In this document: piece by piece, positions 3,715 to 4,300 of the stretch
Numbering within the stretch: the first letter of the stretch is position 1
Layout of the letters: the number at the start of each line of letters is the position of its first letter
DNA from: Trypanosoma brucei
Taxonomy: Eukaryota
DNA length: 64,000 bases
Reading direction: 5' to 3'
NCBI GenBank assembly: GCA_000002445.1
Contig: CM000208.1
Coordinates: 3,990,026 to 4,054,025 of the forward strand
Notes under the pieces: generated by a model
Databases searched by the model: none
Told to the model about the DNA's origin: nothing
What the model saw: only the letters and a program-made list of their open reading frames with translations
Made by a program: the position numbers and the translations under genes

Positions 3715-4300
3715 AAAACTTTATTATTCTGTCTATTTTATTGATATTAATAGTTAGTGTTATGATGGTGATTGCATAATAATAGTAGGAATAATAATAA
3801 TAATAATAATAATAATAATAATAATAATAATAATAATAATAATAATAATAATAATAATAATAATAATAATAATAATAATAATAATAATAATAATAATAAT
3901 AATAATAATAATAATAATAATAATAATAATAATAATAATAATAATAATAATAATAATAATAATAATAATAATAATAATAATAATAATAATAATAATAATA
4001 ATAATAATAATAATAATAATAATAATAATAATAATAATAATAATAATAATAATAATAATAATAATAATAATAATAATAATAATAATAATAATAATAATAA
4101 TAATAATAATAATAATAATAATAATAATAATAATAATAATAATAATAATAATAATAATAATAATAATAATAATAATAATAATAATAATAATAATAATAAT
4201 AATAATAATAATAATAATAATAATAATAATAATAATAATAATAAAAATAGGAGAGTGTTGTAAGTGTGTATATACGAAAAAGTATAATAAGAATGGAGAA
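3715..4300 (+). repeat. 70-bp repeat unit with a greatly expanded perfect (TAA)n tract (3790-4243, about 151 units)
   Basis: About 454 bp of uninterrupted taa. It is flanked 5' by gttagtgttatgatggtgattgcataataatagtagg and 3' by ataaaaataggagagtgttgtaagtgtgtatatacgaaaaagtataataagaatgg, the conserved half of the 70-bp repeat. Confidence 0.85.

What the first reader, a model, noticed from the sequence alone, without database searches (positions are those of the whole stretch)
3790..4243. A perfect (TAA)~151 tract (about 454 bp) embedded in a single 70-bp repeat
In typical 70-bp repeats the triplet portion is 10-20 mixed TAA/TGA units, as in all the other copies in this window. Here one unit upstream of the VSG-pseudogene cassette at 5748 carries about 150 uninterrupted TAA units, flanked by the normal conserved half. 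Long pure TAA·TTA tracts are prone to strand separation and non-B structure. They are the part of the 70-bp repeat implicated in instability and recombination. This locus could be an unusually fragile recombination hotspot inside the silent array. Alternatively it could be an assembly or polymerase artefact.
Basis: partly seen in the sequence, partly recalled or inferred. Interest (0 to 1): 0.55.

Follow-up and report, generated by a model that had tools for sequence, protein, structure and literature searches.

The report
Expanded TAA microsatellite in VSG repeat
One copy of the trypanosome "70-bp repeat" that marks the front of a silent surface-antigen pseudogene carries a perfect 455-bp run of TAA, a real outlier in this window but a longer example of something described in 1984 ((TAA)90), so it is a curiosity, not a discovery.

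Summary
Window 3790-4244 is an uninterrupted period-3 run of 455 bp (151.7 AAT/TAA units). It is followed in register by a recognisable 70-bp-repeat core (4247-4292), about 1.45 kb upstream of a frameshifted VSG pseudogene (5748-7180). The window is the telomere-proximal VSG array of a 4.05-Mb chromosome of Trypanosoma brucei brucei TREU927, shown by three exact protein matches. The other 62 repeat units in the window have triplet tracts of 12-63 bp (median 27), with 65% TAA and 24% TGA units and at most 38 bp of pure TAA. The best reading is a slippage-driven expansion of the normal triplet slot of a single array-type 70-bp repeat. It creates a 460-bp pure A+T stretch, the least stable duplex in the 64 kb. 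Neither strand is predicted to form hairpins, which fits the reported "non-H-bonded" behaviour of TTA·TAA. A long pure (TAA)n between VSG-flanking repeats has direct precedent ((TAA)90, Campbell et al. 1984; Aline et al. 1985). Extra fragility or hotspot activity is plausible but untested, and the locus is silent. The exact length cannot be verified here: no reads and no orthologous locus could be retrieved. Interest is low.

The parts
2103..3616 (+). Upstream VSG (A-type) pseudogene with its 3' UTR. The ORF 2103-2981 is followed by frameshifted remnants, and a variant of the conserved VSG 3'-UTR 16-mer lies at 3601-3616.
   Evidence: Pfam PF00913, E=1.2e-26. Best database relative is 66% identical, T. 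brucei VSG 1304. The 16-mer TAATATATTATAACAC has 2 mismatches to TGATATATTTTAACAC.
3737..3764 (+). 5' boundary motif of the repeat region (TTTATTGATATTAATAGTTAGTGTTATG). It is shared with one other array cassette, at 37700-37727.
   Evidence: It has only 2 matches in the window at up to 3 mismatches, against 0 expected. In the paralogous cassette the same motif lies about 30 bp upstream of the single core at 37761.
3765..3789 (+). Degenerate triplet lead-in (ATGGTGATTGCATAATAATAGTAGG). This is mixed TRR-like sequence just before the pure run.
   Evidence: Direct reading of the sequence. TRF starts the period-3 array at 3776, and the TRR-like walk also starts at 3776.
3790..4244 (+). Perfect (AAT/TAA) run of 151.67 units, 455 bp. 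The pure A+T stretch extends to 4249, giving 460 bp.
4247..4292 (+). Conserved GT-rich core of the 70-bp repeat (ATAGGAGAGTGTTGTAAGTGTGTATATACGAAAAAGTATAATAAGA). It is the short GTGTGT variant with a few substitutions.
   Evidence: nhmmer E=8.9e-7. blastn 84-91% identity to other cores. Local alignment score 63 against a shuffle maximum of 27.
4293..5747 (+). Spacer of about 1.45 kb between the repeat and the VSG start (the 'co-transposed region'). It has no paralogue elsewhere in the window.
   Evidence: blastn of 4245-5747 against the window finds only the core matches. The spacing is comparable to other cassettes in the window, at 0.9-1.8 kb.
5748..7180 (+). Downstream VSG pseudogene. The N-terminal ORF 5748-6308 and the ORF 6461-7180 lie in different frames.
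   Evidence: The two ORFs are listed separately. Their joined translation is 68% identical over 100% of the query to VSG MITat 1.13, E=4e-198.

Best explanation
This is a hyper-expanded, pure (TAA)n microsatellite. It occupies the normal triplet (TRR) slot of the single 70-bp repeat that marks the 5' boundary of a silent, array-type VSG pseudogene cassette, near a chromosome end of T. brucei brucei TREU927. Shown: the position, the register, the purity, the outlier status and the very low duplex stability. Inferred: a short mixed TAA/TGA tract (typically about 9 units) gained a pure TAA run long enough for replication slippage or unequal sister-chromatid exchange to expand it. Its perfect purity next to a mildly diverged core suggests recent or ongoing slippage-driven homogenisation. 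Physically it is a 460-bp A+T-only DNA-unwinding element that would melt first under negative superhelical stress. It would not fold into hairpins. Most likely it is a selectively neutral by-product of the repeat's triplet component, length-polymorphic between clones and strains. At most it modestly raises local replication stalling or unequal recombination. It should not add useful homology for VSG gene conversion, because expression-site-type units here contain at most 38 bp of pure TAA.
For: The core follows immediately 3' of the tract, and the junction is in register with other units. A colinear paralogous cassette at 37.7 kb has the same 5' motif and core separated by only about 30 bp. 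The other 62 units have triplet tracts of median 27 bp and maximum 63 bp, with a mixed TAA/TGA make-up. The tract is the least stable duplex in the window, and neither strand is predicted to fold. Organism and locus type are set by exact matches to TREU927 VSG proteins XP_828092-4 on a 4,054,025-bp contig, by VSG Pfam domains, by 63 same-strand cores and by a terminal GGTTAG array. [quoted passage not shown] 1985), both cited in PMC4858185. [quoted passage not shown]
Against: No read-level or cross-strain evidence was obtainable, so neither the real in vivo length nor any polymorphism is shown. The slippage origin rests on general microsatellite behaviour and is not demonstrated for this locus. 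Neutrality is assumed, not tested. The two 1980s papers could not be read here, so only their titles support the precedent.
Confidence: 0.7

Rival explanations
1. The length is an assembly, cloning or sequencing artefact. The true tract would be much shorter, its apparent length inflated by polymerase slippage or mis-joined reads. Or it would be much longer, collapsed to what Sanger reads could span or partly deleted during propagation in E. coli clones.
For: The source is the 2005-era TREU927 reference, which from my own knowledge was built from Sanger reads of BAC and shotgun clones. A 455-bp perfect repeat is close to the limit of what a single such read can anchor on both sides. Perfect purity is also what a consensus caller would produce. 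Gaps in related Sanger projects fell 'exclusively in the 70-bp repeat regions' (PMC2567434).
Against: The sequence has no Ns. Both junctions are in the natural register of a 70-bp unit, and the two flanks are colinear with a paralogous cassette. That argues against a chimeric join. A tract of 90 units was sequenced independently in another strain in 1984 (title), so long tracts do occur. Trinucleotide repeats slip less in Sanger sequencing than mono- or dinucleotide runs (general knowledge).
Confidence: 0.15
2. The tract is a functional, unusually fragile site inside the silent array. It would stall forks or melt, break more often than ordinary array repeats, and so drive local rearrangement, cassette duplication or loss, or donor usage of the downstream pseudogene in mosaic VSG formation.
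For: It has the lowest duplex stability in the window. Reviews call (TAA)n the physically unstable motif of the repeat and propose replication stalling leading to double-strand breaks (PMC3467770). Subtelomeric breaks occur independently of transcription, which implicates replication (PMC3610638). Longer AAT·ATT repeats (24 against 8 units) were deleterious in E. coli when transcribed (PMC3000339).
Against: No break or recombination data exist for this locus. The array is silent, so the transcription- and R-loop-associated instability emphasised for expression-site repeats should be absent. No rearrangement breakpoint coincides with the tract: the large duplications in the window lie elsewhere. 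A highly fragile perfect tract would be expected to be interrupted, deleted or flanked by rearrangements. Deleting 70-bp repeats does not clearly change switching rates, and the evidence is 'strikingly contradictory' (PMC5422504).
Confidence: 0.1
3. The tract acts as a protein-binding or chromatin element. It could be an extended RAP1 or other AT-binding-protein platform, a nucleosome-excluding boundary, or a replication-origin unwinding element in the subtelomere.
For: [quoted passage not shown] The tract has extreme A+T content and low stability.
Against: It occurs once in this window, while the other 17 array-type cores outside the telomeric block do without it. There is no conservation evidence. 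RAP1 binding was described mainly at expression sites.
Confidence: 0.04

Closest known systems
(TAA)90 between tandem 76-bp repeats upstream of a chromosome-internal VSG gene (Campbell, van Bree & Boothroyd 1984, NAR 12:2759), and (TAA)n 5' of several intrachromosomal VSGs (Aline et al. 1985, NAR 13:3161)
   Same: A long, essentially pure TAA run associated with the 70/76-bp repeat at the 5' limit of a silent, chromosome-internal VSG cassette in T. brucei.
   Different: The tract here is about 1.7 times longer (151.7 units). It lies in strain TREU927 and fronts a pseudogene. A recognisable core is found only on the 3' side, whereas the 1984 title describes repeats flanking the tract. Those papers could not be read here, so finer comparison is not possible.
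Canonical T. brucei 70-bp repeat unit (consensus of Hovel-Miner et al. 2016, PMC4858185)
   Same: The same GT-rich conserved core, the same triplet slot 5' of the core, the same orientation relative to the VSG, and the same junction register.
   Different: The triplet slot is 455-471 bp instead of 12-63 bp, and it is 100% TAA instead of about 65% TAA and 24% TGA. The unit is therefore about 520 bp, not about 70-90 bp.
[quoted passage not shown]
   Same: The same repeat motif. The predictions made here (no hairpin, very low duplex stability) fit an unwound state better than a folded one.
   Different: That work used plasmids in vitro and in E. coli. Nothing is known about supercoiling or melting at this chromosomal locus. 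The paper was seen only through citations.
Expanded AT-rich repeats at human rare fragile sites (FRA16B and FRA10B, 33-bp AT-rich minisatellites) and disease-type triplet expansions
   Same: An A+T-rich tandem repeat expanded far beyond its usual length. The proposed consequences are fork stalling and fragility (mentioned in PMC3000339).
   Different: Those repeats are kilobases long and form stable AT hairpins or cruciforms. (TAA)n is not self-complementary, is predicted to be unstructured, and is only 0.46 kb. No fragility has been demonstrated here.

Membership tests
T. brucei VSG-associated 70-bp repeat | Conserved GT-rich core (about 47 bp, GAGAGTGTTGTGAGTGTGTGTATATACGAATATTATAATAAGAGCAG) | tested here: met
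   nhmmer hit at 4247-4292, E=8.9e-7. Identity to other cores is 84-91%. Alignment score is 63 against a shuffle maximum of 27.
T. brucei VSG-associated 70-bp repeat | A triplet (TRR, mostly TAA/TGA) tract immediately 5' of the core, in register | tested here: met
   The tract ends 2 bp before the core hit. The junction matches 11 other units at no more than 1 mismatch. Length and purity lie far outside the usual range.
T. brucei VSG-associated 70-bp repeat | Located about 1-2 kb upstream of a VSG gene or pseudogene, on the same strand, and downstream of the previous VSG's 3' UTR | tested here: met
   The core ends at 4292 and the VSG pseudogene starts at 5748, a gap of 1.46 kb. The previous VSG's 3'-UTR 16-mer lies at 3601-3616. 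All 63 cores and all VSGs are on the + strand.
T. brucei VSG-associated 70-bp repeat | Organism is a T. brucei-group trypanosome | tested here: met
   Three VSG ORFs of the window are identical to TREU927 proteins XP_828092, XP_828093 and XP_828094. A GGTTAG telomere array closes the window.
Hairpin- or cruciform-forming triplet repeat (CNG-type behaviour) | Single strands fold into stable intrastrand hairpins | tested here: not met
   DNA folding of 3700-4340 on both strands leaves the whole tract unpaired. MFE is -11.4 and -8.2 kcal/mol, against shuffle means of -32.7 and -22.0 (z = +5.9 and +4.3).
H-DNA (intramolecular triplex) forming tract | Homopurine·homopyrimidine mirror repeat | tested here: not met
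   Each strand mixes purine and pyrimidine in every unit (T-A-A / T-T-A), by direct reading.
DNA unwinding element / stress-induced duplex destabilisation site | Local duplex stability far below the surroundings over 100 bp or more | tested here: met
   Nearest-neighbour dG37 is -0.82 kcal/mol per bp over 400 bp. The window mean is -1.29 (sd 0.118), and the next least stable window is -1.02. Actual melting under superhelical stress in vivo cannot be tested here.
Chromosomal fragile site / recombination hotspot | Elevated breakage or recombination frequency measured at the site | not testable with these tools
   This needs break mapping, fluctuation assays or population data. No duplication breakpoint in the window coincides with the tract.

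The most novel reading that the evidence does not exclude
The expanded tract is not a passive microsatellite. It would be a genuine chromosome-internal fragile or unwinding site in the silent VSG archive: a preferred point of fork collapse, RAD51 loading or RAP1/ORC binding. Such a site would locally accelerate cassette duplication, deletion or segmental donation, giving a natural allelic series for testing whether the TAA component of the 70-bp repeat causes DNA breaks.
Probability: 0.08. Interest if true: 0.55.

Novelty: new member of a known kind. Interest (0 to 1): 0.2.

Why it matters
Whether the triplet component of the 70-bp repeat is intrinsically unstable, and whether that instability initiates VSG recombination, is still an open and contradictory question (PMC5422504, PMC6237402). 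A naturally occurring unit with about 15 times the usual TAA length, at a unique and mappable site in the reference strain, could serve as a built-in test locus. If TAA tracts cause breaks or fork stalling, the signal should be strongest here. On its own, though, the tract is a longer instance of a phenomenon published forty years ago. It sits next to a pseudogene in a silent array, and nothing in the sequence shows that it does anything. There is one practical consequence. The tract generates spurious ORFs of 163-192 codons (poly-Asn, poly-Leu, poly-Ile) that should not be annotated. It is also a likely site of length error or collapse in assemblies.

Tried and rejected
1) I tried to retrieve the syntenic locus from other strains or assemblies. 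Exact look-ups of four window ORFs, and of P0005, found no contig on record. Homology searches with the upstream VSG and with the joined downstream pseudogene gave only paralogues of 63-71% identity, none a close enough relative with usable genomic context. The cross-strain test could therefore not be done.
2) I tried to read the primary precedent papers (PMC318704, PMC341227) and Marcello & Barry 2007 (PMC1950903). None is held, so only titles and secondary descriptions were used.
3) I looked for a second, upstream 70-bp core, which would match the 1984 'repeats flanking (TAA)90' layout. None is detectable.
4) The hairpin or cruciform explanation is rejected by folding both strands. The H-DNA explanation is rejected by sequence composition.
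5) A coding interpretation of the ORFs across the tract (3747-4325 on the - strand, 3760-4320 on the - strand, 3772-4263 on the + strand) is rejected. They are homopolymer translations of the repeat and have non-ATG starts.
6) A chimeric assembly join at the tract is judged unlikely. The two flanks are colinear with the cassette at 37.7 kb and the junction is in register.
7) A first fuzzy-regex scan for cores timed out and was replaced by an nhmmer profile.

Full report
**What is there**

Reading window 3400-4700 shows an uninterrupted AAT/TAA run. A script puts the maximal exact period-3 run at 3790-4244: 455 bp, 151.67 units, no interruption and no N anywhere in the window. Tandem Repeats Finder reports the same array with its imperfect edges at 3776-4249 (period 3, 158 copies, 98% matches). 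The next longest pure TAA run in the 64 kb is 37-38 bp, at 60426-60464.

**Where the window comes from**

- All long ORFs lie on the + strand and are VSGs: PF00913 for 2103-2981 and PF13206 for 62140-63591.
- The window ends in 34 copies of GGTTAG, the TTAGGG telomere repeat.
- Three ORFs (30415-32013, 33337-34875, 62140-63591) are identical in sequence to XP_828092, XP_828093 and XP_828094. These are 'variant surface glycoprotein (VSG), putative' of Trypanosoma brucei brucei TREU927, on a contig of 4,054,025 bp.
- The window is thus the telomere-proximal VSG array of a megabase chromosome of the reference strain. From memory, this is probably chromosome 10 of the Sanger-read assembly of 2005. 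That detail was not verified.

**Anatomy of the locus**

- The upstream VSG pseudogene ends with a variant of the conserved 3'-UTR 16-mer at 3601-3616.
- A 28-bp motif at 3737-3764 recurs only once in the window, at 37700-37727, just upstream of another single array-type repeat. In that paralogous cassette the motif and the repeat core are about 30 bp apart.
- At this locus the same two landmarks are separated by a 25-bp degenerate triplet lead-in (3765-3789) plus the 455-bp pure run.
- The run is followed by AAAATAG and then a 70-bp-repeat core at 4247-4292. That core gives nhmmer E=8.9e-7 against a profile of 31 cores of this window. It is 84-91% identical to individual cores and scores 63 in alignment against a maximum of 27 for 300 shuffles.
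- The tract/core junction TAATAATAAAAATAGGAGAGTGTTG matches 11 other units at no more than one mismatch. The run therefore sits in the canonical triplet slot and in register.
- No second core lies upstream of the tract: score 17 against a shuffle mean of 16.3.
- About 1.46 kb downstream begins a VSG pseudogene, split into ORFs 5748-6308 and 6461-7180 in different frames. Joined, they are 68% identical over the full query to VSG MITat 1.13.

**How unusual it is**

The profile finds 63 cores on the + strand: 17 array-type cores besides this one, and a 3.6-kb block of 45 cores at 57.4-61.05 kb in front of the telomeric VSG. The triplet tracts of the other 62 units are 12-63 bp long (median 27 bp, about 9 units), with at most 38 bp of pure TAA. 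Their 527 triplets are 65% TAA, 24% TGA and 4% TAG. Even under the repeat's own unit mix, 151 TAA in a row has P = 1.6e-28. The tract is a real outlier of more than tenfold, in both length and purity.

**Physical properties**

- Folded as single-stranded DNA, both strands of 3700-4340 leave the whole tract unpaired.
- Their minimum free energies (-11.4 and -8.2 kcal/mol) are much weaker than those of dinucleotide shuffles (means -32.7 and -22.0; z = +5.9 and +4.3).
- The tract is not homopurine·homopyrimidine, so canonical H-DNA is not expected.
- It is the least stable duplex in the window. Nearest-neighbour dG37 is -0.82 kcal/mol per bp over 400 bp, against a window mean of -1.29 (sd 0.118) and a next-lowest value of -1.02.
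- Its pure A+T stretch is 460 bp, against 40 bp for the runner-up.
- This agrees with how the literature describes the motif. The TRR/TAA component 'can become non-H bonded' (PMC6292569; PMC5422504) and is a 'physically unstable motif' that could stall replication (PMC3467770). All three cite Ohshima et al. 1996.

**Most likely explanation**

The tract is a microsatellite expansion of the triplet slot of an ordinary single array-type 70-bp repeat. This is inferred from general microsatellite behaviour: once a pure TAA run forms, slippage or unequal sister-chromatid exchange lengthens and homogenises it. The contrast between a perfectly pure 455-bp run and a core that has several substitutions relative to the consensus fits recent or continuing slippage. 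The result is a passive DNA-unwinding element.

Nothing indicates a selected function.

- It occurs once among the 18 array-type units here.
- It fronts a pseudogene.
- The array is silent, so the transcription- and R-loop-linked instability proposed for expression-site repeats should not operate.
- None of the large duplications in the window has a breakpoint at the tract.
- It adds no useful homology to expression-site-type repeats, whose pure TAA runs are at most 38 bp.

**Rival explanations**

- *Length artefact.* This cannot be excluded, because no reads and no orthologous locus could be obtained. A Sanger-era assembly could have collapsed a longer tract, or clones could have lost units. 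The in-register junctions, the colinearity with the 37.7-kb cassette and the independent 1984 precedent all argue that a long tract really exists. The exact number of units is the uncertain part.
- *Functional fragile site or hotspot.* This is plausible on physical grounds. It is also compatible with replication-associated, transcription-independent subtelomeric breaks (PMC3610638). It is untested, and the role of 70-bp repeats in break formation is itself 'strikingly contradictory'.
- *Protein-binding or chromatin element.* RAP1-bound DNA is 'rich in TAAs and GTs' (PMC10686619). This reading is speculative.

**Comparison with what is known**

[quoted passage not shown] 1985). Both are known here only from titles cited in PMC4858185 and PMC6237402. 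[quoted passage not shown] The present tract meets every defining feature of a 70-bp repeat that could be tested: core, triplet slot, position, strand and organism. It differs only in degree, being about 1.7 times the published (TAA)90 and about 15 times the local median. It does not behave like hairpin-forming disease triplets or H-DNA tracts.

**Verdict**

The finding is a new, longer member of a known kind. Interest is low (0.2). Its main value is as a natural test locus for the unresolved question of whether the TAA component causes breaks.

Noticed in passing
window 54557-57147 vs 60985-63582: The VSG pseudogene cassette just upstream of the 3.6-kb 70-bp-repeat block (B-type fragments at 55708-56214 and 56192-56743, with a single 70-bp core at 54577) is 87% identical over 2.6 kb to the telomeric VSG cassette (62140-63591). 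So a decayed paralogue and an intact telomeric copy sit on either side of the long repeat block. No ORF of 150 codons or more other than this pseudogene's two fragments lies in the roughly 11 kb upstream of the block, and the content of that stretch was not examined, so whether this end is a classical expression site is open.
   Followed up: partly
window 21306-25121 vs 25169-28988: A tandem duplication of a whole VSG cassette, about 3.8 kb at 95.9% identity. One copy is frameshifted (23173-23766 and 23763-24665) and the other has a long ORF (27009-28532). A third, more diverged piece lies at 52755-53314 (81-87% identity).
   Followed up: partly
window 31768-32342 vs 34630-35205: Two neighbouring VSGs (30415-32013 and 33337-34875, = XP_828092 and XP_828093) share a 97.7% identical 3' end of 576 bp, running through the stop codon and 3' UTR into the next 70-bp repeat. 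Both have the same atypical C-terminus (...KCAEMVVSSIKNLL) in place of a normal GPI-signal tail. This looks like a shared, possibly frameshifted, 3' segment spread by partial gene conversion.
   Followed up: no
window 57401-61049: The telomere-proximal 70-bp block (45 cores) has higher-order structure. Long internal segments repeat, and TRF gives identical rows 895 bp apart (for example 58216-58259 and 59111-59154, or 58409-58561 and 59304-59456). The first and last roughly 600 bp (57401-58039 and 60440-61046) are 92% identical. Two core subtypes alternate, one with GTGTGTGT and one with GTGTGT.
   Followed up: partly
window 3747-4325 (-), 3760-4320 (-), 3772-4263 (+): The tract creates three spurious ORFs of 163-192 codons (poly-Leu, poly-Ile, poly-Asn) with non-ATG starts. 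They are translation artefacts of the repeat and should not be taken for genes.
   Followed up: yes
window 3737-3764 and 37700-37727: A 28-bp motif (TTTATKGATATTAATAGTTAGKGTTATG) lies immediately 5' of the triplet tract in just two of the array cassettes of this window. It may mark a subfamily of cassette boundaries, or common ancestry of these two intergenic regions. The flanks are also about 70% similar for about 110 bp 3' of the core.
   Followed up: partly
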